From the IMG/VR virus record IMGVR_UViG_3300045988_112125: a stretch of DNA of 46,438 nt. One strand, given 5' to 3'. Origin of the DNA: a virus. A model generated the notes under the pieces. That model searched no databases. It was not told the DNA's origin and worked only from the letters and a program-made list of their open reading frames with translations. The position numbers and the translations under genes were made by a program. This document shows, piece by piece, positions 3,598 through 42,121 of the stretch (the first letter of the stretch is position 1; each line of letters starts with the position of its first letter).

Positions 3598-4923
3598 ATG
3601 AACATAGAAAAGCAGGTAAATCCTAGGTTTGATAACTTTATATTTGACTGGGACTATAAAACTTATCTGTTGGTTGGTGGTTATGGTAGCAGTAAATCAT
3701 ACCACGTAGCCTTGAAAATTATACTGAAGTTACTGAGTGAGAAACGTAAGGCGTTGGTAGTCCGAGAAGTGTATGACACACATAGGGATAGTACTTTCTC
3801 ACTATTCAAGGAAATACTTGAAGAGCTAGAGCTACTAGCATTCAGTAGGTCAGAAGGTAAGCATAAGGTAGTGGCTAAGGAAAGCCCCTTTAAGCTAACA
3901 TTTCCTAACGGTTCTGAGGTAATATTTAAGGGTATGGACAAGCCGGAGAAACTCAAGTCCATGAACGGTGTTACAATCGTCTGGTTAGAAGAGTGTAGCG
4001 AAATTAAGTACGCCGGTTATAAGGAGTTACTGGGACGACTCAGACACCCATACCTGAGTCTACATTTTATCCTGAGTACAAACCCAGTAGGTACAGAAAA
4101 CTGGGTATTCACTCACTTCTTTAAATATGTAGATGAAGAAGGAGAAGAGCACATCAAACTTGATGATGAAAAGCTGTACAAGCGTAAGACCATCGTAAAA
4201 GATGGGGTATATTACCACCACAGTACAGCTGATGACAACTACTTCCTACCACAGTCATACATTGAACAGCTCGACGATATGAAGGAGTACGATAAGGACT
4301 TATGGCGTATCGCCAGACAGGGCCGTTTTGGTGTCAATGGCTTATTGGTACTGCCTCAGCTGGAAGTTGTAGACAGTGCAGAGGTTATGAAGGCTGTGAA
4401 CACTATATCTCCACGGTTTAAAACAATTGGTTTCGACTTCGGTTTTGAGACATCGTATAACGCTGTGGTTAAGATGGCTGTGGATGATAAAAATAAATGG
4501 CTGTATGTCTATGCCGAGTTCTATAAGAACAAGATGACTGACGACAGGACAGCTAAAGCATTGGTTAAGTGGGATAGTCACATCAAGGAAGAAATGATTA
4601 TTGCAGACTGTGAAGACCCCAAGGCCATACAGTACTACTTTCAGGAAGGATTCAAGATAAGGGGCTGTAAGAAATTCCCCGGTTCAAGGCTGGCTAACAC
4701 TAAGAAGTGTAAGAGATTTAAACGGATAATCATAAGCAGTGACTGTCCAAATACCATAAGAGAGCTTAAGACCTTGACTTATAAGAAGGATACAAACGGT
4801 CAATATATCTTTGATGAATTTAATATAGACCCTCACACATTTTCTGCTATGTGGTACGGCCTTGACGGTTATACTGTAGCAGACATTAAACAACGTAAAC
4901 GTAACAGCAAACGAGGGGGTTAG
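3598..4923 (+). CDS. terL: Terminase large subunit (PBSX/Terminase_3-like)
   Basis: Walker A VGGYGSSKS, Walker B-like IVWLEE, and a C-terminal nuclease-sized domain. Length is 441 aa. Confidence 0.9.
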   Translation: MNIEKQVNPRFDNFIFDWDYKTYLLVGGYGSSKSYHVALKIILKLLSEKRKALVVREVYDTHRDSTFSLFKEILEELELLAFSRSEGKHKVVAKESPFKLTFPNGSEVIFKGMDKPEKLKSMNGVTIVWLEECSEIKYAGYKELLGRLRHPYLSLHFILSTNPVGTENWVFTHFFKYVDEEGEEHIKLDDEKLYKRKTIVKDGVYYHHSTADDNYFLPQSYIEQLDDMKEYDKDLWRIARQGRFGVNGLLVLPQLEVVDSAEVMKAVNTISPRFKTIGFDFGFETSYNAVVKMAVDDKNKWLYVYAEFYKNKMTDDRTAKALVKWDSHIKEEMIIADCEDPKAIQYYFQEGFKIRGCKKFPGSRLANTKKCKRFKRIIISSDCPNTIRELKTLTYKKDTNGQYIFDEFNIDPHTFSAMWYGLDGYTVADIKQRKRNSKRGG

Positions 4924-30132: not shown

Positions 30133-30879
30133 CTATAAAACAGGTGTACCGTCTACAGACTGAGTGTAACTTTTATCTAAGTTTTCCAAGGCTTTTTTGT
30201 AGTCTCTTGCGTACATATGGAGTGAACCGGCGTTGTGTGTATACGTTCCCAGCTCAAGACCTAGCTCCATAGCCAGTCTAACCTGCATAGCTGTAAACTG
30301 GAGTACGTCATTAGGGTAGCCCATCCATAAATCATTAGAACGCATATTTGTCACCATGTAGAGCCTTCCATCACGCACAAAAAACTGAAGGTAAACCGTG
30401 CAGTTAACGTCTTTTGTGGGGTTGTCCAGCAGGTTCCTGGGTTCCTTGATATGAATAACTGCCTGTCTGCTGCTAGGGTCTATTGAGAGTAGGTTTTTTA
30501 CAAACTCCATCTGATCGAACCCGTACTTTTTCATTATGCAGTGGCCGTAATTGCTGTTCACAGTTTTGCCGTTATCGCTCATTCTGTCCCATGCGTTTGT
30601 GTAAAGCTTAATCGCATCAAGGTTTGGGTTACCAGACAGGTACCATAGCAGTTCACCAATAGCATACCGCATTGGAAGTTTTCTTATCGGTGTCTTGAGG
30701 ATACATCTTGTAGGGTCTTTAATAACTGTGGTGCAATTTAGAATCTCACCAACTACAGCTCCGTCCCGGCTGTCAGCTTCATATCCGTTTTGTGCCTGCC
30801 TGCTAATCTCTGAGAACAGATTTAACCACGCTTCATCAATATTCTCATAAACACCATGCTTAAACTCTAAAATACCCAT
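30133..30879 (-). CDS. ThyA-family deoxycytidylate hydroxymethylase-like enzyme (T4 gp42-like)
   Basis: Motifs ELLWY, VNSNYG, NC(160)TVYLQFFVRDG, MRSND, YPND(191)VLQF and GSLHMY. The Cys-to-Asp spacing of 31 residues matches T4 gp42 C148/D179 as I recall it. Confidence 0.75.
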   Translation of the reverse strand: MGILEFKHGVYENIDEAWLNLFSEISRQAQNGYEADSRDGAVVGEILNCTTVIKDPTRCILKTPIRKLPMRYAIGELLWYLSGNPNLDAIKLYTNAWDRMSDNGKTVNSNYGHCIMKKYGFDQMEFVKNLLSIDPSSRQAVIHIKEPRNLLDNPTKDVNCTVYLQFFVRDGRLYMVTNMRSNDLWMGYPNDVLQFTAMQVRLAMELGLELGTYTHNAGSLHMYARDYKKALENLDKSYTQSVDGTPVL

Positions 30880-30880
30880 A

Positions 30881-31393
30881 TTACACCTCCGAAGTATTCC
30901 ACTCTTTTACGTTCAGAATGGAGCAGTTAAACGTACCTCTAAACTTTGCGATAATGTCCTCAACCGGCGTTCCACCCATGATAGCCTCTTTCCTTGCGTC
31001 AAGTCTTTCCCTGATGTCTTCGGGGTCTGCTACCACATGAATTACGGTAGCTCCGGCCTCTAACATTTCAGTTTCCAGCAGGTTAAGCATGGTTACAGCT
31101 GCCTGCCTATTCGGTACCTCGTACACATTGTTACCAATCACAACGCTGTGCGTTCCTTCCATCGGTATGCTCAGCGGCCTGTCCTGTTCTTCCTGATATA
31201 CGAATTGGCCATAACAGAACCGGTCTGCAATAATATTCCGTGTCTTGCTGACCTCAATAATACTATGGAAAAATGTATAGTTGTTTGGTGTAAACTGTGT
31301 GCAGTGAATAACCTCTGCATTCATAATCTCTGCCAGCTTTTTAGCCAGTGTGCTTTTACCTGAACCATCACAACCCTCTAACACAATTAGCAT
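30881..31393 (-). CDS. dNMP kinase (thymidylate kinase-like)
   Basis: P-loop LEGCDGSGKST, 170 aa. The gene starts 1 nt downstream of the ThyA-like gene's stop... corrected: its stop (30881) lies 1 nt upstream of the ThyA-like gene's start codon (30879). Confidence 0.75.
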   Translation of the reverse strand: MLIVLEGCDGSGKSTLAKKLAEIMNAEVIHCTQFTPNNYTFFHSIIEVSKTRNIIADRFCYGQFVYQEEQDRPLSIPMEGTHSVVIGNNVYEVPNRQAAVTMLNLLETEMLEAGATVIHVVADPEDIRERLDARKEAIMGGTPVEDIIAKFRGTFNCSILNVKEWNTSEV

Positions 31394-31551
31394 TTTGTTT
31401 CCTCCCTCTTAATGTCAATTCTTATCACGTTTTTAACCCTGTAGACAGTAATTTTTCCGTCTATGAGCTTAAACTCCATTTTTGGTATTTCAGGGTCATC
31501 TACTAACTTTCTGTATGCTCTGTTTATCCATTCTAAGTACTCACGCTCCAT
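31387..31551 (-). CDS. Small hypothetical protein (54 aa; below the ORF-track cutoff)
   Basis: GGAGGAG RBS. The ATG at 31551 lies 3 nt after the upstream stop, and its own stop overlaps the downstream ATG (ATGCTAA). Confidence 0.5.
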   Translation of the reverse strand: MEREYLEWINRAYRKLVDDPEIPKMEFKLIDGKITVYRVKNVIRIDIKREETKC

Positions 31552-31554
31552 ATT

Positions 31555-32445
31555 CTACTCCTCCATTTTCCAATAGTTCCACTTAAATTTCAGGCTTTCC
31601 CACCCTGATTTTGTGGTCTTAAACCCAACCCCTTTATGGCTTTTTCCTTTAAGTACTACTCTTACAAATCTGCTGTTTAAGGTCTTATATTTTTCATTGA
31701 CTTCTTCATCGTTTTTGCATCCCCCAGAGTTAGAACCTATGCTTGGACAATCATAAACTAAGTCTCTAAACACTATAGTTTTTAAGCCTTTTTCCATGCA
31801 CTCAAACTGAAGAGCATAGTCATCAACCCCTACCTCAGAATTGGCTCTAAAATTTATCTTATTATCCTTTAACTGTTTTGTGTTTACATGAATACACTGG
31901 ATGCAACACCCGCAGTTATACACATATGCTGAATTTTTATTCCTGATATTCCACCAATCACTCTTTAACCCCGGAGCTGATAACGCAACTTCATACTTTC
32001 TTTCCTGTATGAGCTTAACCCACATCTTTAATGCATAAGCATTTACATTGTAAGGCCTTCCGGTATTTGTGGAATGAACCCTCATAACCATTTTTCCGTT
32101 TTTAGTTGGGGCTGGCTCTAGAAAATCAAGAAGCCTTATGTCATCATCAATTAAGAAAATATTGTCGATACCTTTTTTCCAGCAATATCTTATAATTGCT
32201 GCTTTTGTGCTCCCTCCATCATGCACATTTTTCAGCTTAACTATGATAAACCTATCACCATACTTTTTGTACAAATTATACTGCTCTTTTCTTATGAAAA
32301 GTATAACACTATATCTATTTTGAGTATAAAGGTTTTTTAACAGAGTCGCTTCTGGCCTGTTGTAGGATGGTATGCAGATAGGAAATATTTCACTATCTTT
32401 CATATGCTTACTGCACCATTTTGCCATTTTATGTGCTCTATACAT
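31555..32445 (-). CDS. GT-A (GT2-like) glycosyltransferase; candidate DNA base glycosyltransferase
   Basis: N-terminal FPICIPSYNRPE and DxD-type IFLIDDDIRL. The target is inferred only from its operon context with the hmC-type enzyme and the kinase. Confidence 0.55.
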   Translation of the reverse strand: MYRAHKMAKWCSKHMKDSEIFPICIPSYNRPEATLLKNLYTQNRYSVILFIRKEQYNLYKKYGDRFIIVKLKNVHDGGSTKAAIIRYCWKKGIDNIFLIDDDIRLLDFLEPAPTKNGKMVMRVHSTNTGRPYNVNAYALKMWVKLIQERKYEVALSAPGLKSDWWNIRNKNSAYVYNCGCCIQCIHVNTKQLKDNKINFRANSEVGVDDYALQFECMEKGLKTIVFRDLVYDCPSIGSNSGGCKNDEEVNEKYKTLNSRFVRVVLKGKSHKGVGFKTTKSGWESLKFKWNYWKMEE

Positions 32446-32492
32446 ATTCACCTCTTATCATAAAGGGGGGCCGTAGCCCCCTGTTTTAATGC

Positions 32493-33342: not shown

Positions 33343-34077
33343 TTACCCCTGAATTATCCCCATCAACTTATCATACGTTGGATTTATTACAATGTCCGGG
33401 ACTTGAATACCGGGGTTTATCTGAAGTTTAGTCCAGTAATACGGGTTAGCTCCAATATGTACAGCATACCGGACAACTTCTTTTTCCTGCCCTGTCTTTT
33501 TGCTTATGATGGTTTTCTTAAGCTTTGTGGTATGAATACCATAGTTCGCCATGCCTTCAAGATAGGTTCTGGCACCCTTTGTAACTGATGGCCTGATGTC
33601 TGGCAGTATCTCATCTTCCATACCTTCAATACTGTCGTTGGACTCATGGCAGGATAGAACCACGATATGACTCAGTGCGAGCTTATGGAAAATCTTGATA
33701 AGTTCTTCGCTGTCAATCTTTACCTCTCCCCACATCTGCTGAGTCATTTTCTTATTCTTCTGTGTGGCATTCTTATCTATCCACTCATTAGTAATCATTG
33801 AAAATGTATCAACAAATATGGTCTTATACTTTTTGTCTGTCATTAAGCCCTGAGCCGTATCTTTAAGGTCTGCCAGTGACTCAGCTCTTACAGCCATGAC
33901 CCCTTCGGTGTCTGCAATCGTGTTACTTCCATCGTCACCCACCTGTATATATAGCATAGGTTTAGGGAACGTAGCCCCTAAAGCTGTTTTACCAGTGCCG
34001 GATTTACCCCAGATAACCCACAGGTTACGCTGTCCAAGTTTTTCTATGCTTACTGCTTTACTCAGTAAGTTAGCCAT
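33343..34077 (-). CDS. Sak4-like RecA-fold ATPase (AAA_24)
   Basis: Walker A WGKSGTGKT, Walker B-like IFVDTF, 244 aa. Synteny with the DUF669 protein and the exonuclease. Confidence 0.75.
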   Translation of the reverse strand: MANLLSKAVSIEKLGQRNLWVIWGKSGTGKTALGATFPKPMLYIQVGDDGSNTIADTEGVMAVRAESLADLKDTAQGLMTDKKYKTIFVDTFSMITNEWIDKNATQKNKKMTQQMWGEVKIDSEELIKIFHKLALSHIVVLSCHESNDSIEGMEDEILPDIRPSVTKGARTYLEGMANYGIHTTKLKKTIISKKTGQEKEVVRYAVHIGANPYYWTKLQINPGIQVPDIVINPTYDKLMGIIQG

Positions 34078-35044
34078 TTACTCTGTGCTCCTCCTTTTCT
34101 TTATAGTTTTTCTCAATGATGTAGGCTGTATCACCCCCACTCATTTCACTGAAGCAAATATCTCTGAAGCTGCACCACTTACAGTCCCTAGTTACGTTTT
34201 TAGTCTTATTAGTACTGCCTCTTTTTGCCATGTCTTTACAGGTATAAACAAACCCTTCCCAGATGTCTTCTACCATCTGTGGGTAAAAGTCCTGCTTAAC
34301 CCTGAAGAAAAAGTTACCTACATTACCGTTATACAGCTCTGAGCCTCTTTTTATCACTGATTTGTCAGTTATTCCCTTGCTTTTACAAGCCCTTGCCCAG
34401 CTGTACGGGGTTATGTCTGCACTTTTTGACTCACTGAATCTGTGAGACTTTTCCAGCCATATAGGCTCCTTAGCCGGAGCTGATTTAATGTAGTCCCATA
34501 TTACCCCTTCAGGTAAAATTCCTCTAAGAGTTTGAGTTGCCTTTGCATATAAGCATTTTTGCGTATTCATGGTGAGCGTGTTCATGTCTGGCCTTTGATT
34601 AAATGTCTTATGCTCCCCTATGAGTATTCGCTTTTTGCCATTTATTTTCTGCAAATACAACTCATCAATAACTCCTACAAAGTACACCGGCTCCCCTTTA
34701 CAATACCCTAGCAGTATTTCAAACGGTTCTTCCGTTTTCTGTGGTAAAGGGGCTCCTCTGTACACTCTGACATAGTCCCTGAATATGGTAAACAGGTCTT
34801 CCACATAACTATCACCCAGCTCTGTCTGCCAGCTGCCCGGCATCTCGTAAAACTTATCCCGGATGTCCTCCTTAGCTTGTCTTAGAGCTTCTTTATCACC
34901 TCTTAGCTCTAAAAGTTTATGAAAGTCACTTCCAAAGTATAGCGGTCTTACTGGCTTTTTAAGTGTAAGTCGCTGTACATACCCTAGATAATGTTTATAC
35001 GGGCAGCTTAAATATGTACTAAACCGTGAATAACTTATGTGCAT
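34070..35044 (-). CDS. PD-(D/E)xK exonuclease, Cas4/RecB-like with a Cys cluster (start moved to MHISYSRFS)
   Basis: N-terminal YLSCPYK, central VIDELY...GEHKT, and C-terminal CKWCSFRDIC, which is the Cas4-type four-Cys arrangement. Confidence 0.75.
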   Translation of the reverse strand: MHISYSRFSTYLSCPYKHYLGYVQRLTLKKPVRPLYFGSDFHKLLELRGDKEALRQAKEDIRDKFYEMPGSWQTELGDSYVEDLFTIFRDYVRVYRGAPLPQKTEEPFEILLGYCKGEPVYFVGVIDELYLQKINGKKRILIGEHKTFNQRPDMNTLTMNTQKCLYAKATQTLRGILPEGVIWDYIKSAPAKEPIWLEKSHRFSESKSADITPYSWARACKSKGITDKSVIKRGSELYNGNVGNFFFRVKQDFYPQMVEDIWEGFVYTCKDMAKRGSTNKTKNVTRDCKWCSFRDICFSEMSGGDTAYIIEKNYKEKEEHRVNG

Positions 35045-35066
35045 TGTGGAATCCTTTCGAGTTAGA

Positions 35067-35558
35067 CTACTCTTCATCGTCCTCTACTTCTTCATACTCG
35101 TCATCGTCATCGTCATCCTCTTCAGGTTCCGGCTCTTTTACTTTTTTCTTAGAAGGTTTCTTAGATTTTGCCGGTTTCTTTTTAGAAGCCTCTTCCTCCT
35201 CGTCATCCTCTTCCAGCTCTTCCTCTTCATCTTCTTTGACTTTCTTTTTCTTAGCCTTTGCAGCCTCAGCAGCCTTCTTACGCATCTCAGCCTTTTCCTG
35301 CTTTGCTTTTGTAGCTTTGCGGATGTCACGAGGATTTACGTATGAGCCATCATCCTCAATGATGATATTAGCGTAAGCCGGATTCTTAGGGTTAAGCTGC
35401 TTACCGGATTTTCTGTCAAACTCTACCTCTGAGCCATCAGCCTTCTTAATGGTGATAATCTTTGCATCAGCCTTTACTACTGGATAAACTCCAAGCTTCA
35501 TTCCTGTGAAACCACACATAATAACAGTGTTCCCTTTTTTGATTTTTGCAAGTGACAT
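35067..35558 (-). CDS. Hypothetical protein: FTGM small domain plus polyampholyte tail
   Basis: The N-terminal ~60 aa are paralogous to the C-termini of 43324..44142 and 44925..45269. The C-terminal half consists of alternating K-rich and D/E-rich blocks. Confidence 0.6.
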   Translation of the reverse strand: MSLAKIKKGNTVIMCGFTGMKLGVYPVVKADAKIITIKKADGSEVEFDRKSGKQLNPKNPAYANIIIEDDGSYVNPRDIRKATKAKQEKAEMRKKAAEAAKAKKKKVKEDEEEELEEDDEEEEASKKKPAKSKKPSKKKVKEPEPEEDDDDDDEYEEVEDDEE

Positions 35559-35617
35559 ATCTTGCCCTCCTTATAATATTATGGTATGTATGATAAACGC
35601 TTTAGCGTTTTATCCTA

Positions 35618-35691
35618 TGGGTCTTATAGGACTCGAACCTACGGCCGTCCGGTTATGAGCCGGATGCTCTAACCAACTGAGCTAAAGACCC
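35618..35691 (-). tRNA. tRNA with anticodon CAT (elongator Met or lysidine-dependent Ile2)
   Basis: Cloverleaf read by eye: acceptor GGGTCTT/AAGACCC, D arm GCTC-AGTTGGTTA-GAGC, anticodon arm TCCGG-CTCATAA-CCGGA, T arm GTAGG-TTCGAGT-CCTAT, discriminator A. No CCA is encoded, and it is not initiator-like (G1-C72, no GGG/CCC stem). Confidence 0.9.
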
Positions 35692-35992
35692 TTTATTACC
35701 CGGTACCGTGCTGTACCCCATTTATGTACAGCTCCCTCCACCTCGTGCCTTTGCTATCGGCTGGCCCTCCCGGGTATATGTAGCTTACTTAGTGTTGTGT
35801 CAAGGACGTTGTTGTTAAGGTACTGACTGTTAACACCAGTAAGAATACACCATTATTTTCCTGCACCGTCCAGTGGTGACTGGGTGCAGAAGTTCAAGCC
35901 CACTTGCACCTGTTTACACCCGGTGCCTCGGTAGAGTATTGTTTTACAGCGGTCTCCTCCGCTCTTGCTTGAGCACTACCCTCAACTGAGGA
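35692..35992 (-). ncRNA. Candidate structured RNA / long structured tRNA leader (class unknown)
   Basis: ~300 nt with no credible ORF on either strand, starting just downstream of promoter 36000..36028 and ending at the tRNA. Several perfect helices are present, for example 35710-35716/35726-35732 and the long-range pair 35697-35703/35770-35776. Confidence 0.45.
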
Positions 35993-35999
35993 TGTAGTA

Positions 36000-36028
36000 A
36001 TTATTGCACACTTTCCTGAAAAAGTCAA
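36000..36028 (-). promoter_or_regulatory. SigA-type promoter (TTGACT-17-TGcAATAAT)
   Basis: Minus strand reads cgaaaagtgcTTGACT ttttcaggaaagtgtgc AATAAT, located just after the polA stop. Confidence 0.7.
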
Positions 36029-36083
36029 GCACTTTTCGTAGAAATTTTGCAATTTTCGTTAAAGCCTTATATTCAACTAAGTT

Positions 36084-37808
36084 TTAGTGGGTTCCCCACT
36101 TTCCAACACCACAGTCTGAGTCAAGTTTTACTCTCAGCTTCACGCCAAACTTGTCCATTAGCGCCGGGTGTGCCATAATTTCCTTGATTCTGGGTACAAT
36201 CCAGTCCTTGTCTTCTTCTCTGAACTCACCGAGGATTGAATCATGGACTGTTCCGACAATTTTTAACCCATAAGGAGTTAACTCCTTATGTATCTGTATG
36301 GCAGCACTCAGGAGTATGTCTGAGCCTGTACCCTGTACCGGGGTGTTAATGGCTCTACGCTCTGCACCACCTTTCTTACCCCAGTCTCTACTGTAAATAT
36401 CGGGGAGCTTCCTAAACCGTCCGAAAAGATTGTAAACACCGCCCAGAGCTTCGGCTTTTCTACGCTGTTCTTCATGCCACGGCAGCAGTCTGGAATACTT
36501 TGCGAAAAACAGTTCACGGAACCGCTCAGCCTCTGACAAAGTAAACACCACACCGTAAGAGGCAAAAGCATAATCAACGAACTTTTTGGCCCCCATGCCG
36601 TACAGGAACCCGAAGTTAACAGCTTTGGCCTTGCCTCGCTCTTCCTTTGTAGGCTGACGGCCTCCTGTCATTAGCATAGCTGTTTCTGTGTGGATGTCGC
36701 CATCTTCAGCATAAATTTTGAGCATGGTAGGCTCATTGGCATAGTGAGCAGCAATTCTGAGTTCCAGCTGGGAATAGTCTGCCTCAAAGAAACATCGGCC
36801 CTCTGTGGCATGGAATAGCCCTCTAACGTCCTTTGTCCGTGGTACTTGCTGTAAGTTTGGGTCTGTGCAGCTTGTCCGTCCGGACACCACATTAGTTAAG
36901 TTGAACGATGGGTGTATTCTACCGGTATAAGAGCTGTCCTCGCCCCAACGATTTAGGAACATTTTGTTCAGGGTATTTGCAGCTGTATAGTCAAGAATCA
37001 TGTTAGGAATCTCATACCCCTGTGAGGCCAGTCTTTTTAGGGCTTTTGCACTAGTACTAGGTTCACCTTTTGGGGTCTTTTCTACCACTGGCAAGCACTC
37101 CCCTTTAGGGCTTTTGAACAGCACTTCAGCCTTCTGCTGTGGGCTGTTCCAGTTTATATCATATTTCTTCTTAAGAGCTTCCAGCTTTTCAGCTTCAATG
37201 TCTTTATATTTCTTCTTTACAACCTTAAACTCTTCCCTGTCAAAGTATATGCCGTTTCTTTCCACATCACGATACATAAGGTAGGCAGGTTTAAGAAGCT
37301 TAAGATATATCGCCATCTGCTCCTCTGTCAGCTTTTTCCAGAAAAATCGGAATAACTCCCATGTGTACCTGACGTCTTTCTTAAGATATGGTATTAGGGT
37401 GTTACGGCTGTCTGCATTCTTATTCAGCTTGTCAGCCTTCTTTATATCCCAATCCTCTACCCCTAAGTATCTTTTAGCCATGGCCTTAAGACCATGTTCA
37501 GCAGCTAAATCATACGCTGTACCCATTAGCATTACATCATGTGTTATTGGTATTTTTATGTCATAGGCTGTTTCAATAAATAGTGTGTCAAACTTACCAT
37601 TTTGAAATACAGTCTTAGCTTTATTTCTTTTAAACTCATCCACCAAACTTTTAAATGTGTACTCATTCTCTGGCTTACTCATGTCAAGGATATACCCTTT
37701 ATAAATTTTGCTGTCCGGGTCTCTTGCTACCCCTATACCGATGAAAGTTATTCTATCCTTGAATCGGTTTAGTCCAGTGGTCTCTATATCAATCGTTACA
37801 TACATCAA
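36084..37808 (-). CDS. Family A DNA polymerase with 3'-5' exonuclease domain
   Basis: Exo I TIDIETTGL, motif A DYSQLELRIAAH, motif B RGKAKAVNFGFLYGMG, motif C VHDSIL. Confidence 0.95.
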   Translation of the reverse strand: MMYVTIDIETTGLNRFKDRITFIGIGVARDPDSKIYKGYILDMSKPENEYTFKSLVDEFKRNKAKTVFQNGKFDTLFIETAYDIKIPITHDVMLMGTAYDLAAEHGLKAMAKRYLGVEDWDIKKADKLNKNADSRNTLIPYLKKDVRYTWELFRFFWKKLTEEQMAIYLKLLKPAYLMYRDVERNGIYFDREEFKVVKKKYKDIEAEKLEALKKKYDINWNSPQQKAEVLFKSPKGECLPVVEKTPKGEPSTSAKALKRLASQGYEIPNMILDYTAANTLNKMFLNRWGEDSSYTGRIHPSFNLTNVVSGRTSCTDPNLQQVPRTKDVRGLFHATEGRCFFEADYSQLELRIAAHYANEPTMLKIYAEDGDIHTETAMLMTGGRQPTKEERGKAKAVNFGFLYGMGAKKFVDYAFASYGVVFTLSEAERFRELFFAKYSRLLPWHEEQRRKAEALGGVYNLFGRFRKLPDIYSRDWGKKGGAERRAINTPVQGTGSDILLSAAIQIHKELTPYGLKIVGTVHDSILGEFREEDKDWIVPRIKEIMAHPALMDKFGVKLRVKLDSDCGVGKWGTH

Positions 37809-40738: not shown

Positions 40739-41221
40739 TTAATTATTCTTATCTGGTGCTTTCCAATCAACGTGATGAACTGCTACTCCACCGGCCTCAA
40801 GTATTGCAGCTGTGTAAGGCGAAATTTCCTCGTCACGGCCATAGAACACTTCCTTAATACCAGCAGCTGTAATAGCTCTAGCACAGGCTTCACAAGGATA
40901 CCGGGTTACAACCATAATTGCGCCAGCGGTATCTATACCCACTGAAGCTGCTCTGGAAATGGCATCCACCTCGCTATGAATGCTGTTGCAATCAGATGGG
41001 AGCCTGTGCTGCTTTGAGTCATCACCATACAGCTTCACACGTCTGCACCCGTCTTTAATGCAGTCATAGCCTATCCCACGGTTAGCTCCGTAGACAATGT
41101 ACCCACTTTTAGACAAAAGAGCACAGCCTACTTTTACTTTTGTGCATCCTGAATATTCATTAGCATACTCCTGAGCTTTTTCAAAAAACTCGTTTATAAT
41201 CTGTCTTACTTTATCTGTCAT
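40739..41221 (-). CDS. dCMP deaminase (ComEB/cytidine-deaminase fold)
   Basis: Zinc motifs HSEVDAI and PCEACARAI. 160 aa. Confidence 0.85.
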   Translation of the reverse strand: MTDKVRQIINEFFEKAQEYANEYSGCTKVKVGCALLSKSGYIVYGANRGIGYDCIKDGCRRVKLYGDDSKQHRLPSDCNSIHSEVDAISRAASVGIDTAGAIMVVTRYPCEACARAITAAGIKEVFYGRDEEISPYTAAILEAGGVAVHHVDWKAPDKNN

Positions 41222-41226
41222 ACTTT

Positions 41227-41796
41227 CTACCTCCCCATAATCTTGCTGGCTCCCATGTCTGCCATGTGAGTATAAAGTACGTTAGGATACTTGTGAATAG
41301 CTGCATCAAATTCATTCCACTCATCTGTCTGGTATGCACCCATGTGATACCGAATGCAAAGCATCTCTTCTTCTGTTAAGTCCGGCACAAGCTGTAAAGC
41401 CCTAATAACTGACAGCTCCCCGTGTCCTTTCCATACAAGGTTTTTTGTGTATTCGTAGTGGTAATTTACAGTGGCCTCGTCACAGTCCCAAGAGTCAGCT
41501 ACCTGTGTATATGTACCCAACTTACATAAATCGTGCAGCATGCCTACAATAATCGGGGAATCCACCCTCTTCCACTTAAGCCCTAACCGCAAAGTACACT
41601 TGCAAAGTAGCTCAGTGACAGCGATACTGTGACTCATAAGACCACCCTCTACAGCCCCGTGATACTTTGCGCTGGCTGGGCAGGTTAAGTAACCCATATT
41701 GATAAGTCTGTCACATGCTTTACCCTGTAACCGAGTACCTATAAGAATATCTCTTAATACCTCTTCCTGCTCAGTAATGTTAACTCTCTTTGTCAT
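41227..41796 (-). CDS. HD-domain phosphohydrolase
   Basis: PASAKYHGAVEGGLMSHS and MLHDLCK (H...HD). Resembles the YhaM-type HD module. Confidence 0.7.
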   Translation of the reverse strand: MTKRVNITEQEEVLRDILIGTRLQGKACDRLINMGYLTCPASAKYHGAVEGGLMSHSIAVTELLCKCTLRLGLKWKRVDSPIIVGMLHDLCKLGTYTQVADSWDCDEATVNYHYEYTKNLVWKGHGELSVIRALQLVPDLTEEEMLCIRYHMGAYQTDEWNEFDAAIHKYPNVLYTHMADMGASKIMGR

Positions 41797-42121
41797 GTTC
41801 TCCTCCTATTTTACAGTACTCAGCTACAGATGATACGTAGCAACTGATACTGGGTTTTTTATTTCCCATAAGTACACTGAGCACAAGCTCATCCGGGCAC
41901 CTCTCCGTGGACTTAGCTATCGCATATCGTGCAGCCCTCTCTACAGCTTTCCAATGTGCGTTGTGAGTACTGCCTATTTTTTTGTACTCCCTACAAAAAG
42001 AAATATCTGCGCCCTTTTCTACAGCTTCTTTTGTACATTCCACAAGGTACTCAAACCCTTTAAGATGGACTGGAACTCCCATTTTAAATAGGAGCCTTCT
42101 GACCTTTAAATCTAAGCTCAA
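41780..42121 (-). CDS. Stand-alone Spo0A C-terminal (DNA-binding) domain protein
   Basis: TTG start 5 nt after GGAGGTG. MGVPVHLKGFEYLVEC, AVERAARYAIAKS and KKPSISCYVSSVAEY parallel B. subtilis Spo0A IGVPAHIKGYLYLREA, RVERAIRHAIEVA and KPTNSEFIAMVAD. No receiver domain is present. Confidence 0.75.
   Translation of the reverse strand: MSLDLKVRRLLFKMGVPVHLKGFEYLVECTKEAVEKGADISFCREYKKIGSTHNAHWKAVERAARYAIAKSTERCPDELVLSVLMGNKKPSISCYVSSVAEYCKIGGEHDKES

What the first reader, a model, noticed from the sequence alone, without database searches (positions are those of the whole stretch)
35692..35992. ~300-nt ORF-free, hairpin-dense transcript between a consensus promoter and the tRNA: candidate novel structured RNA
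A TTGACT-17-TGcAATAAT promoter (36000..36028, minus) fires into about 300 nt with no credible ORF on either strand; the longest ATG-initiated frames I found are under 25 codons and lack an RBS. This stretch runs directly into a tRNA(CAU) gene. It looks GC-richer than its surroundings and contains several perfect helices on the minus strand: CCTCA/TGAGG, AGCGG/CCGCT, GGTGCA/TGCACC, TACTGGT/GTCAGTA, GCTGTAC/GTACAGC (35710-35716/35726-35732), and a 7-bp long-range pair TACCCGG/CCGGGTA (35697-35703/35770-35776) that encloses a multi-helix domain. Large ornate phage RNAs such as GOLLD and ROOL are known to sit next to tRNA genes. This element is shorter, and I saw no hallmark of tmRNA, RNase P RNA or a group I intron. 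It could be a new RNA class, a long tRNA-processing leader, or a DNA-level element such as an origin downstream of polA.
Basis: partly seen in the sequence, partly recalled or inferred. Interest (0 to 1): 0.7.

Follow-up and report, generated by a model that had tools for sequence, protein, structure and literature searches.

The report
Orphan structured leader RNA before phage tRNA
A gut phage carries a roughly 300-base non-coding RNA, made together with a tRNA from one strong promoter, whose hairpins are kept intact by matching mutations in sister strains; it matches no known RNA family, occurs only in this one phage species, and its function is unknown.

Summary
The anatomy is confirmed. 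A conserved sigma-70 promoter (36028..36000, minus strand) is followed by 304 nt with no conserved ORF (35995..35692), a tRNA(CAU) (35691..35618), and then, with no terminator, the small-ORF/exonuclease operon.

TACTGGT/GTCAGTA is only TACTG/CAGTA and is contradicted by strain variants. GGTGCA/TGCACC loses to alternative partners.

Rfam matches only the tRNA. The single-sequence folding signal is weak (z about -2).

Eleven distinct variants from sister strains preserve an eight-helix fold. 99% of pair cells stay paired, 4-5 pairs change on both sides, and 11 one-sided changes are wobble-compatible. In a mutation re-placement test the sense strand scores z = -3.0/-3.9, against -2.2/-1.4 for the antisense strand and +1.5 to -1.5 for five polA controls.

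The element is absent from about 30 relatives (polA 65-86% identical). In those phages the same promoter-proximal slot is short or holds other cargo: tRNA-Gln plus tRNA-Met, a RAGATH-8-like RNA, or ORFs. No homologue was found in IMG/VR, GenBank phages or GTDB genomes.

Best reading: a lineage-specific structured RNA cargo co-transcribed with the tRNA and probably released by RNase P. It is not an origin, a protein gene or a GOLLD/ROOL-class RNA. Interest is moderate.

The parts
36000..36028 (-). Sigma-70-type promoter TTGACT-17-TGcAATAAT (extended -10). The predicted transcription start is about 35993-35995.
   Evidence: 10 of 12 positions with TG, and the only minus-strand hit in 34500-37000. 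The -35 hexamer and the TG-extended -10 are conserved in strain variants and in relatives L083-L085 and L005. The start site is inferred from spacing, not measured.
35692..35995 (-). 304-nt non-coding structured RNA (leader/cargo RNA), running from the predicted start site to the base before the tRNA.
   Evidence: No Rfam hit. No conserved ORF. GC content 0.50. Fold conserved across 11 variants.
35978..35993 (-). H1: hairpin at the very 5' end, AUCCUC-AGUU-GAGGGU. It probably belongs to the ancestral leader rather than to the insert.
   Evidence: All pair cells are paired in 11 variants. A hairpin at the same position directly after the promoter is seen in L083, L084 and L085, with different sequences.
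35948..35963 (-). H2: hairpin AGCGG-AGGAGA-CCGCU.
   Evidence: 5 pairs, with one G-C to G-U change in type-B variants and no breaks.
35906..35926 (-). H3: hairpin GCACC...GGUGC with an inner GU/AC pair.
   Evidence: three one-sided changes in type-B variants, all wobble-compatible.
35859..35891 (-). H4: helix UUC-GCACC / GGUGC-GGA around an apical hairpin. The apical part (about 35868..35882) is inverted in type-B strains.
   Evidence: Pair 112/134 switches C-G to U-A in 8 of 11 variants. The inversion is visible.
35778..35850 (-). H5: long central irregular hairpin (GUGUA/UACAU, CUUAC/GUAAG, GGUGUU/AACACU, GUCA/UGAC) with a variable tip.
   Evidence: In L169-171 the tip of about 45 nt is replaced, but the closing helices are kept and one pair changes U-A to C-G after re-alignment.
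35697..35776 (-). H6: 7-bp closing helix UACCCGG/CCGGGUA that encloses an 80-nt 3' domain and ends 5 nt before the tRNA.
   Evidence: Pair 231/300 switches G-C to A-U in 4 variants, with one break in one sequence. The competing long-range partner 35915-35923 is contradicted by those same 4 variants.
35747..35761 (-). H7: short hairpin GCC-GAUAGCAAA-GGC inside the 3' domain.
   Evidence: 3 pairs with one wobble change. This is weak on its own.
35710..35732 (-). H8: hairpin GCUGUAC-AUAAAUGGG-GUACAGC. This is the best-supported helix.
   Evidence: Two pairs change on both sides (G-C to A-U, U-A to C-G). Three G-U intermediates occur and there are no breaks.
35730..35753 (-). Invariant purine-rich stretch CAAAGGCACGAGGUGGAGGGAGCU, mostly unpaired in the model.
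   Evidence: Identical in all 15 sequences of alignment A4. Its role is unknown.
35618..35691 (-). tRNA(CAU), elongator type, with no encoded CCA. Its 5' end is the expected RNase P cleavage site that would release the upstream RNA.
   Evidence: 74.5 bits. The strain variants carry compensatory changes in the acceptor stem. Its D arm and anticodon arm are identical to the tRNA-CAU of many Clostridia.
35595..35610 (-). Hairpin AAACGC-UAAA-GCGUUU of the ancestral leader. It has no U-tract, so it is not an intrinsic terminator. The RBS and the small-ORF ATG (35558) follow it.
   Evidence: Sequence. No minus-strand terminator or second promoter was found. The same hairpin is present in L084, which lacks the insert.

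Best explanation
The 304 nt are an RNA. They form the 5' part of a non-coding cargo cassette (structured RNA plus tRNA(CAU)) that sits in the 5' leader of the phage's recombination/replication operon. That operon encodes a small acidic protein, a PD-(D/E)XK exonuclease, an AAA_24 protein and a DUF669 protein.

Shown:
- A conserved strong promoter fires into the element.
- There is no terminator and no second promoter before the small ORF, so the element, the tRNA and the operon mRNA should form one primary transcript.
- The element encodes no conserved protein.
- It folds into eight helices, H1 to H8. These make a terminal 5' hairpin, three short hairpins, a long central hairpin and a closed 80-nt 3' domain.
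- The pairing is preserved by compensatory and wobble changes in sister strains, and the signal is stronger on the transcribed strand.
- The cassette is an insertion into a slot that in relatives is short or holds other structured RNAs.

Inferred:
- RNase P cleavage at the tRNA 5' end (between 35692 and 35691) releases a ~300-nt RNA. Its 5' end is protected by H1, and its 3' end is protected by the H6-closed domain followed by a 5-nt tail. It would therefore accumulate as a stable small RNA.
- This would parallel the stable RNAs processed out of the phage T4 tRNA operon. GOLLD and ROOL may likewise be co-transcribed with neighbouring tRNAs.
- Its activity is most likely in trans, for example binding or decoying a host or phage factor during infection. 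Nothing here identifies the partner.
For: - Promoter and transcript layout. The promoter is conserved in relatives.
- No Rfam family other than tRNA. No conserved ORF, and indels of 1, 2 and 4 nt.
- Fold conservation in 11 variants: 63 pairs, 99.0% of cells paired, 4 pairs changed on both sides plus a fifth after re-aligning L169, 11 one-sided changes all wobble-compatible, and 2 genuine breaks.
- Helices of 5 bp or more that carry a compensatory pair: 7 observed against 2.15 expected (1/200).
- Mutation re-placement test on the RNAalifold energy. Sense strand: -79.5 against -67.5 +/- 4.0 and -59.2 +/- 5.2 (0/150 each).
- Same test, comparisons. Antisense strand: -62.0 against -53.1 and -54.6 (3/150, 17/150). 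Five polA control segments: z = +1.5 to -1.5. tRNA positive control: z = -1.5/-1.8.
- GC content 0.50 against 0.424, top 1.7% of windows.
- The slot is a cargo site for structured RNAs in relatives: tRNA-Gln plus tRNA-Met in L085-87, tRNA-Gln and tRNA-Lys with a 355-nt spacer in L109, and a RAGATH-8-like RNA in L095.
- GOLLD and ROOL lie near tRNAs and may be co-transcribed with them: PMC5737381, section 18.
Against: - The element is confined to one phage species, so the comparison rests on shallow divergence (about 9-12%) and few independent events.
- Its substitution rate is no lower than that of four-fold sites in the downstream genes. Mosaic recombination makes the rate test inconclusive.
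- Single-sequence folding z-scores are only -1.2 to -2.9.
- Parts of the element are plastic. One apical hairpin is inverted in type-B strains, and one hairpin tip is replaced in L169-171.
- Some coupled changes in short hairpins could come from template switching at inverted repeats rather than from selection.
- There are no expression or processing data. No target complementarity in the phage genome exceeds chance (longest match 11 nt; duplex with the downstream RBS region no better than 78 of 300 shuffles).
Confidence: 0.55

Rival explanations
1. Neutral passenger. The 300 nt are foreign DNA that arrived with the tRNA gene, or decayed cargo. They are transcribed only as a dispensable 5' leader that is discarded after RNase P cleavage. 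The hairpins would be incidental or maintained by DNA-level hairpin repair.
For: - The element is found in one species only, and closer relatives do without it.
- Its divergence is similar to four-fold sites of the downstream genes.
- The MFE z-score is modest.
- The inversion and the tip replacement are tolerated.
- No homologue exists anywhere else.
Against: - Substitutions avoid disrupting the common fold far more than re-placed mutations do, and more than in five coding controls.
- The signal is strand-asymmetric, and one-sided changes are G-U compatible on the transcribed strand. Template switching does not predict this.
- GC content of 0.50 contrasts with the AT-rich spacers of relatives.
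- A 24-nt stretch is invariant.
Confidence: 0.25
2. Cis-acting regulatory leader. Alternative pairings among the four GCACC/GGUGC copies (35926..35863) would act as an attenuator or sensor that tunes read-through into the tRNA and the recombination operon, or the rate of processing.
For: - Four mutually complementary 5-6-nt segments allow exclusive alternative hairpins.
- The element lies in the 5' leader of an operon that has no promoter of its own.
Against: - No hairpin is followed by a U-tract on the transcribed strand.
- No riboswitch, T-box or leader family matches at E<=10.
- In most variants the middle pairing is weakened to G-U while the H3 and H4 pairings are kept, which argues for one structure rather than a switch.
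- The RBS lies 130 nt downstream, beyond a tRNA, and shows no better-than-chance pairing with the element.
- Relatives express the same operon without the element.
Confidence: 0.1
3. DNA-level element, such as a replication origin, packaging site or recombination site, next to polA.
For: - It lies within the replication module.
- It is rich in inverted repeats.
- The inversion in type-B strains shows that the inverted repeats are recombinogenic as DNA.
Against: - There are no iterons or tandem repeats.
- The region is GC-rich rather than AT-rich.
- The cumulative GC skew has no inflection here.
- Fold conservation is stronger on the transcribed strand and involves G-U pairs.
- Relatives with the same replication genes lack the element.
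Confidence: 0.03
4. It encodes a small protein on one of the two strands.
For: Frames of 22-52 codons exist on both strands.
Against: - All start at GTG or TTG without a Shine-Dalgarno sequence.
- None is present in all variants.
- Indels of 1, 2 and 4 nt and a loss of the ATG occur in the variants.
- Recoding TGA or TAG does not open a long frame that has a start codon.
Confidence: 0.02

Closest known systems
Stable RNAs C and D (rnaC, rnaD) of the bacteriophage T4 tRNA operon (from my own knowledge of the T4 literature; not checked with tools)
   Same: Both are phage-encoded small structured RNAs of unknown function. Both lie in the same transcription unit as tRNA genes and are (here, would be) released by the tRNA-processing machinery.
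   Different: There is no sequence or structural similarity. The T4 RNAs are about 120-140 nt and sit among eight tRNAs. This RNA is ~300 nt, precedes a single tRNA, and sits inside the leader of a protein-coding operon.
GOLLD and ROOL large ornate RNAs
   Same: They are often found in phages and prophages next to tRNA genes and may be co-transcribed with them (PMC5737381). Their function is also unknown.
   Different: The Rfam models give no hit even at E<=10. This element is about half the size or less (size comparison from my own knowledge), consists of simple hairpin domains, has only a weak thermodynamic signal, and is restricted to one phage species instead of many lineages.
RAGATH-8 RNA (Rfam RF02687)
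   Same: A RAGATH-8-like RNA occupies the same slot in the related phage contig L095 (3287-3445), directly after the homologous promoter and before the small ORF. It scores 35.2 bits, E = 1.5e-7 in a local search. Its model length of 276 positions is similar to this element.
   Different: The window element does not match the RAGATH-8 model. It also lacks the conserved junction sequence GAGAUGACACAGCAC, even allowing 3 mismatches.
Ordinary tRNA 5' leaders and inter-tRNA spacers in phage tRNA clusters
   Same: It lies between a promoter and a tRNA and would be removed by RNase P. Relatives have spacers of 116 nt (L085) and 355 nt (L109) in the same slot.
   Different: It is much longer than a usual leader. 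It is GC-rich (0.50), whereas the L085 spacer is AT-rich. Its pairing is preserved by compensatory changes.
5'-terminal stabiliser hairpins of bacterial mRNAs (general knowledge of 5'-end-dependent decay by RNase E or RNase J)
   Same: H1 starts within 0-2 nt of the predicted start site. It has positional counterparts in L083, L084 and L085.
   Different: This accounts for only the first 18 nt, not for the remaining ~285 nt.

Membership tests
Any Rfam 15 family (including GOLLD, ROOL, RAGATH-8, tmRNA, RNase P RNA, group I/II introns, riboswitches, T-box, 6S, self-cleaving ribozymes) | Covariance-model score at or above the family's gathering threshold | tested here: not met
   Only the tRNA passes. 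A permissive scan of 35400-36300 at E<=10 gives no hit inside 35692-35958. The single weak hit (snoRNA GlsR7, 13.6 bits, E = 7.4, at 35959-36008) is a chance-level match.
RAGATH-8 | Conserved junction sequences (GCAAGCAGGA ... GAGAUGACACAGCAC) closed by helix P1 | tested here: not met
   GAGATGACACAGCAC is absent from the window with up to 3 mismatches. It is present in L095.
tRNA / tRNA-like / tmRNA | Cloverleaf detectable by ARAGORN or the Rfam tRNA model | tested here: not met
   ARAGORN at lowered thresholds (-ps, -ps80) finds only the known tRNA. Only an implausible call appears on the opposite strand, with an intron.
Structured non-coding RNA (generic) | Base pairs maintained by compensatory and wobble substitutions beyond what phylogeny alone gives | tested here: met
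   with controls. The depth is limited: 11 variants of one species.
Structured non-coding RNA (generic) | Conservation across distinct lineages | tested here: not met
   Absent from all relatives with polA at 86% identity or below. Also absent from GenBank phages, IMG/VR k-mer scans, GTDB genomes, and 283 held loci searched with model R1.
Structured non-coding RNA (generic) | A discrete, stable transcript | not testable with these tools
   No transcriptome data are available. The promoter and the processing site are inferred from sequence.
Transcription attenuator / riboswitch leader | Terminator hairpin with a U-tract, or RBS sequestration, controlled by alternative pairing | tested here: not met
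   No minus-strand terminator-like site. Pairing with the downstream RBS region is no better than in shuffles, 78/300. Alternative pairings do exist, but the variants favour one set.
Replication origin | Iterons or DnaA-box-like direct repeats, an AT-rich unwinding region, a skew inflection | tested here: not met
   Direct repeats are only chance-sized pairs of 8-14 nt, and there are no tandem repeats. GC content is 0.50. The cumulative skew is monotonic.
Small protein gene | An ORF with a start codon and RBS, conserved in relatives | tested here: not met

The most novel reading that the evidence does not exclude
The element is the founding member of a new class of phage small RNAs. Such RNAs would be delivered as cargo in the leader of an early or middle operon, excised by the host tRNA-processing enzymes together with a phage tRNA, and act in trans. 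One possibility is a decoy or sponge for a host defence or RNA-metabolism factor linked to tRNA function. The variable slot, which in relatives holds tRNAs, a RAGATH-8-like RNA or this RNA, would then be a general 'RNA moron' site of this gut-phage family.
Probability: 0.25. Interest if true: 0.65.

Novelty: new variant of a known kind. Interest (0 to 1): 0.4.

Why it matters
If the RNA is functional, it adds a concrete and experimentally tractable example to the poorly understood group of phage non-coding RNAs that travel with tRNA genes (the T4 stable RNAs, GOLLD, ROOL). The site itself may be the more useful finding. In one family of uncultivated gut phages that appear to infect Clostridia, the 5' leader of the recombination operon behaves as a hot spot that collects structured RNA cargo. 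The tRNA would serve as a built-in processing signal that frees both the upstream RNA and the downstream mRNA. As it stands, the element is an orphan in a single phage species. Its general importance is therefore limited until a function or wider relatives are found.

Tried and rejected
- Rfam at gathering and permissive thresholds on the window and on 21 related loci. Only tRNAs and one RAGATH-8-like hit in L095 were found.
- blastn of the region against GenBank phages. Only the tRNA matches.
- Exact k-mer scans with four element-specific 20-23-mers in IMG/VR and GTDB genomes. Nothing was found.
- Host-capture hypothesis. 120 bacterial loci carrying the same tRNA core were fetched and searched by blastn, nhmmer and the covariance model. 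No element lies upstream of any of them.
- Decayed tRNA or tRNA-like domain. ARAGORN at relaxed thresholds is negative. The 14-nt similarity between 35866-35879 and the tRNA anticodon arm has no cloverleaf context.
- Internal promoter. The perfect TTGACA at 35803..35798 is mutated in 7 of 15 strain sequences, so it was rejected.
- Stop-codon recoding to open an ORF. Rejected.
- The 22-aa ORF 35653..35721 that runs into the tRNA. Its ATG is lost in several variants.
- Test for purifying selection by rate against four-fold sites. Inconclusive, because divergence is mosaic along the region.
- The long-range helix of the single-sequence MFE, 35915-35923 with 35770-35778. It is contradicted by four variants.
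- Enrichment of GGA or Shine-Dalgarno-like motifs (sponge idea). A hand count gave about the expected number, so it was not pursued.
- Trans or cis target search within the phage genome. Nothing exceeds chance.
- Scan of neighbouring proteins for RNA-using enzymes (reverse transcriptase, TnpB, Cas). None was found.

Full report
**1. What is at the coordinates**

Read on the minus strand, the region has this layout.
- A family-A DNA polymerase gene ends at 36084.
- A sigma-70-type promoter with an extended -10, TTGACT-17-TGcAATAAT, lies at 36028..36000.
- About 304 nt follow without a credible ORF (35995..35692).
- Next comes a tRNA with anticodon CAU (35691..35618; ARAGORN, Rfam 74.5 bits).
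- Then a hairpin without a U-tract (35610..35595), an RBS, and a 163-aa ORF starting at 35558.
- That ORF leads into a PD-(D/E)XK exonuclease, an AAA_24 protein and a DUF669 protein.

No terminator-like site and no second promoter was found on this strand between the promoter and the small ORF. The element, the tRNA and the operon mRNA should therefore be one primary transcript. This is an inference.

**2.

The promoter, the tRNA, the absence of ORFs and the higher GC content are all confirmed. GC is 0.50 against 0.424 for the window, in the top 1.7% of 304-nt windows.

Five of the six listed helices are perfect complements at the stated places. TACTGGT/GTCAGTA is mis-stated, because only TACTG/CAGTA pairs.

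Taken alone, the sequence is only mildly unusual.
- MFE is -96 kcal/mol, z = -1.84 to -2.11.
- Perfect 5-bp stems number 38 against 23 +/- 6 in shuffles (5/300). 7-bp stems are not enriched.
- Rfam 15 finds nothing but the tRNA, even at E<=10 on a 900-nt slice.
- ARAGORN at relaxed thresholds finds no second tRNA or tmRNA.

**3. Context from relatives**

The phage has no close cultured relative. The best GenBank polA hit is 59% identical.

Relatives were collected from IMG/VR, public metagenomes and Logan/ENA assemblies. In those with polA 65-86% identical, the same promoter is followed directly by the small ORF after only about 40-150 nt of leader. This holds for L003-L005, L083, L084, L094 and L097-L099.

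The slot is variable.
- L085-87 (polA 84% identical) carry tRNA-Gln(TTG), a 116-nt spacer and tRNA-Met(CAT).
- L109 carries tRNA-Gln, a hairpin-rich 355-nt spacer and tRNA-Lys.
- L001, L090 and L100 carry ORFs.
- L095 carries a RAGATH-8-like RNA that starts right at the transcription start (RF02687, 35 bits, below the gathering score, but with the conserved junction sequences).

The window's 300 nt plus tRNA are therefore an insertion into a leader that repeatedly acquires structured-RNA cargo. The first hairpin (H1, 35993..35978) and the hairpin after the tRNA have counterparts in relatives without the insert. They probably belong to the ancestral leader.

**4. Distribution**

The element itself occurs only in strains of the same phage species (polA >=96% identical). 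These are L082, L089 and L105 (about 99.5% identical in the element), and L088, L169-L179 (about 90-95%).

It was not found anywhere else.
- Not in any other relative, by blastn, nhmmer or covariance model R1.
- Not in GenBank phages.
- Not in IMG/VR, by three k-mers.
- Not in GTDB genomes.
- Not upstream of the near-identical tRNA-CAU genes of 120 mostly Clostridia genomes.

It is an orphan.

**5. Is it a structured RNA?**

The 11 distinct variants (alignment A5) differ at 85 of 310 columns.

No ORF on either strand is shared by all variants. Indels of 1, 2 and 4 nt occur.

A domain model of eight helices (63 pairs) performs as follows.
- 99.0% of pair cells remain paired.
- Four pairs change on both sides: H4 C-G to U-A, H6 G-C to A-U, and H8 G-C to A-U and U-A to C-G.
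- A fifth pair in H5 changes on both sides once the L169 tip is re-aligned.
- Eleven further pairs change on one side only, always to or from G-U.
- Apart from the replaced L169 tip there are two genuine breaks.

The structure was derived from these same sequences, so I ran my own controls.
- Scanning all possible conserved helices of 5 bp or more, 7 carry a compensatory pair against 2.15 expected when variable columns are permuted (1/200).
- I kept the consensus sequence and each column's lineage pattern and change type, but re-placed the mutations. The real RNAalifold energy is -79.5. It compares with -67.5 +/- 4.0 when mutations are re-placed among variable positions, and -59.2 +/- 5.2 when re-placed anywhere (0/150 each).
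- The antisense strand gives weaker values: z = -2.2/-1.4, with 3/150 and 17/150 as extreme.
- Five 304-nt polA segments from the same strains give z between +1.5 and -1.5. The tRNA, as positive control, gives -1.5/-1.8.

I conclude that pairing on the transcribed strand is under selection. The comparison is shallow, however.

Weaknesses:
- The element's divergence (0.08-0.12) is similar to four-fold sites of the downstream genes (0-0.2). It is lower only than the polA 3' end (0.26-0.32). Divergence is mosaic from recombination, so a rate test says nothing.
- The apical part of H4 is inverted in type-B strains, and the tip of H5 is replaced in L169-171. Those loops therefore carry no sequence-specific function.
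- Template switching at inverted repeats could produce some coupled changes. It does not explain the G-U intermediates or the strand asymmetry.

**6. Which helices**

- They weaken GGTGCA/TGCACC to G-U.
- They support H3 (35926..35906) and H4 (35891..35859) instead.
- RNAalifold prefers two invariant long-range helices (CUCUACC/GGUGGAG and GUGCU/GGUAC) over H6. These cannot be nested together with H6 and cannot be judged from invariant columns. Chemical probing is needed.
- A 24-nt purine-rich stretch (35753..35730) is invariant in all strains.

**7. Mechanism**

Shown: promoter, co-orientation, no terminator, non-coding, conserved fold, insertion into a cargo slot.

Inferred: RNase P cleavage at the 5' end of the tRNA frees a ~300-nt RNA. 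It begins with a terminal hairpin and ends 5 nt after a closed 80-nt domain, features expected to protect both ends. tRNA 3' processing frees the operon mRNA.

The closest analogies are the stable RNAs processed from the T4 tRNA operon (my own knowledge) and the tRNA-adjacent GOLLD and ROOL RNAs, for which co-transcription has been suggested (PMC5737381).

No partner or target could be identified. Complementarity to the rest of the genome and to the downstream RBS is at chance level. No RNA-dependent enzyme is encoded nearby.

**8. Rivals**

- Neutral passenger leader, confidence 0.25. It fits the orphan distribution and the plasticity, but not the fold-preserving, strand-specific substitution pattern.
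- Cis-regulatory attenuator, 0.1. It fits the four GCACC/GGUGC repeats, but there is no terminator or RBS sequestration, and the variants favour a single pairing scheme.
- DNA origin or packaging site, 0.03. There are no iterons, no AT-rich region and no skew change.
- Small protein, 0.02.

**9. Verdict**

This is a real, lineage-specific candidate structured RNA, co-transcribed with a phage tRNA and belonging to no described family. It is a new sequence family within a loosely known kind, tRNA-linked phage non-coding RNAs. Interest is moderate (0.4). The cargo-slot behaviour of this leader across the phage family is as noteworthy as the element itself.

Noticed in passing
L095 3287-3445: A RAGATH-8-like RNA (Rfam RF02687) sits directly after the homologous promoter, in the same slot of a related phage contig. 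It scores 35.2 bits, below the gathering score of 86.7. The conserved junction sequences and the closing helix are present and the internal stems are shortened.
   Followed up: partly
L085 4885-5148 (same in L086, L087); L109 3476-3980; L104 1458-1851: Relatives carry different tRNA cargo in or near the same slot. L085-87 have tRNA-Gln(TTG) plus tRNA-Met(CAT). L109 has tRNA-Gln and tRNA-Lys separated by a hairpin-dense 355-nt spacer that includes two similar hairpins (GTAGTATC-GTA-GATACTAC and GTGATATC-GCA-GATATCAC). L104 has tRNAs Met, Gln and Thr after the small ORF.
   Followed up: partly
window 35868..35882 (compare L088 4776-5151, L177, L178, L179): In type-B strains the apical part of helix H4 is the reverse complement of the window sequence, while the flanking stem is kept. 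This is a small inversion mediated by the inverted repeat.
   Followed up: partly
window ~35800..35838 (compare L169, L170, L171): In one strain group the tip of the central hairpin (about 45 nt) is replaced by unrelated sequence that forms its own hairpin (AAACGT/ACGTTT). The closing helices are retained, with a compensatory change.
   Followed up: partly
L172 3722-4396: One strain variant has an extra 224-aa ORF with no Pfam hit, inserted between polA and the promoter. This is another sign that the polA-proximal region is an insertion hot spot.
   Followed up: no
L081, L082, L088, L170, L171, L173, L178, L179 (contig ends): Many short-read assemblies of this phage break inside or at the tRNA gene. 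The tRNA's D arm and anticodon arm (39 nt) are identical to tRNA-CAU genes of many Clostridia (Ruminococcus, Oscillospiraceae, Anaerotignum, Eubacterium). This points to the host group and explains the assembly breaks.
   Followed up: partly
window 35618..35691: The tRNA(CAU) is elongator type (G1-C72 pair). It could be tRNA-Ile2 (lysidine-modified, reading AUA) rather than tRNA-Met. ATA makes up 315 of 842 Ile codons in the window's ORFs. The isotype could not be decided with the tools at hand.
   Followed up: partly
window 30133..32451 and 40739..41221 (minus strand): There is a probable DNA base-modification module. It comprises a TET-associated glycosyltransferase (TAGT, 31555..32451), a thymidylate-synthase-like protein (30133..30879), a nucleotide kinase-like protein (30881..31393) and a dCMP deaminase (40739..41221).
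   Followed up: no
window 41780..42121 (minus strand): A 113-aa protein consists of a Spo0A C-terminal DNA-binding domain (Pfam PF08769, E = 1e-10). This suggests that the phage interferes with sporulation control in a spore-forming Firmicute host.
   Followed up: no
L084 ~4840-4870; L085 ~4850-4880: The leaders of two close relatives share a hairpin whose loop contains CCCGAG. Its stems differ completely but stay complementary (CTAGGGT/ACCCTAG against AATAGACTG/CAGTCTATT). This may be a conserved leader motif, and it is absent from the window.
   Followed up: no
window 34070..37805 compared with L169-L179: Divergence at four-fold sites changes abruptly along polA and between polA and the downstream genes. 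For example, L172 shows 0.30 in the polA 3' quarter and 0.00 in the small ORF. This indicates frequent recombination among strains, with breakpoints near the element.
   Followed up: partly
window 35067..35558 (minus strand): The 163-aa protein downstream has a conserved N-terminal domain of about 75 aa and a highly charged Lys/Glu/Asp low-complexity tail. The tail varies in length among strains (131, 161 or 163 aa). One source annotates a 161-aa variant as 'flagellar biosynthesis GTPase FlhF', which looks like a low-complexity artefact.
   Followed up: no
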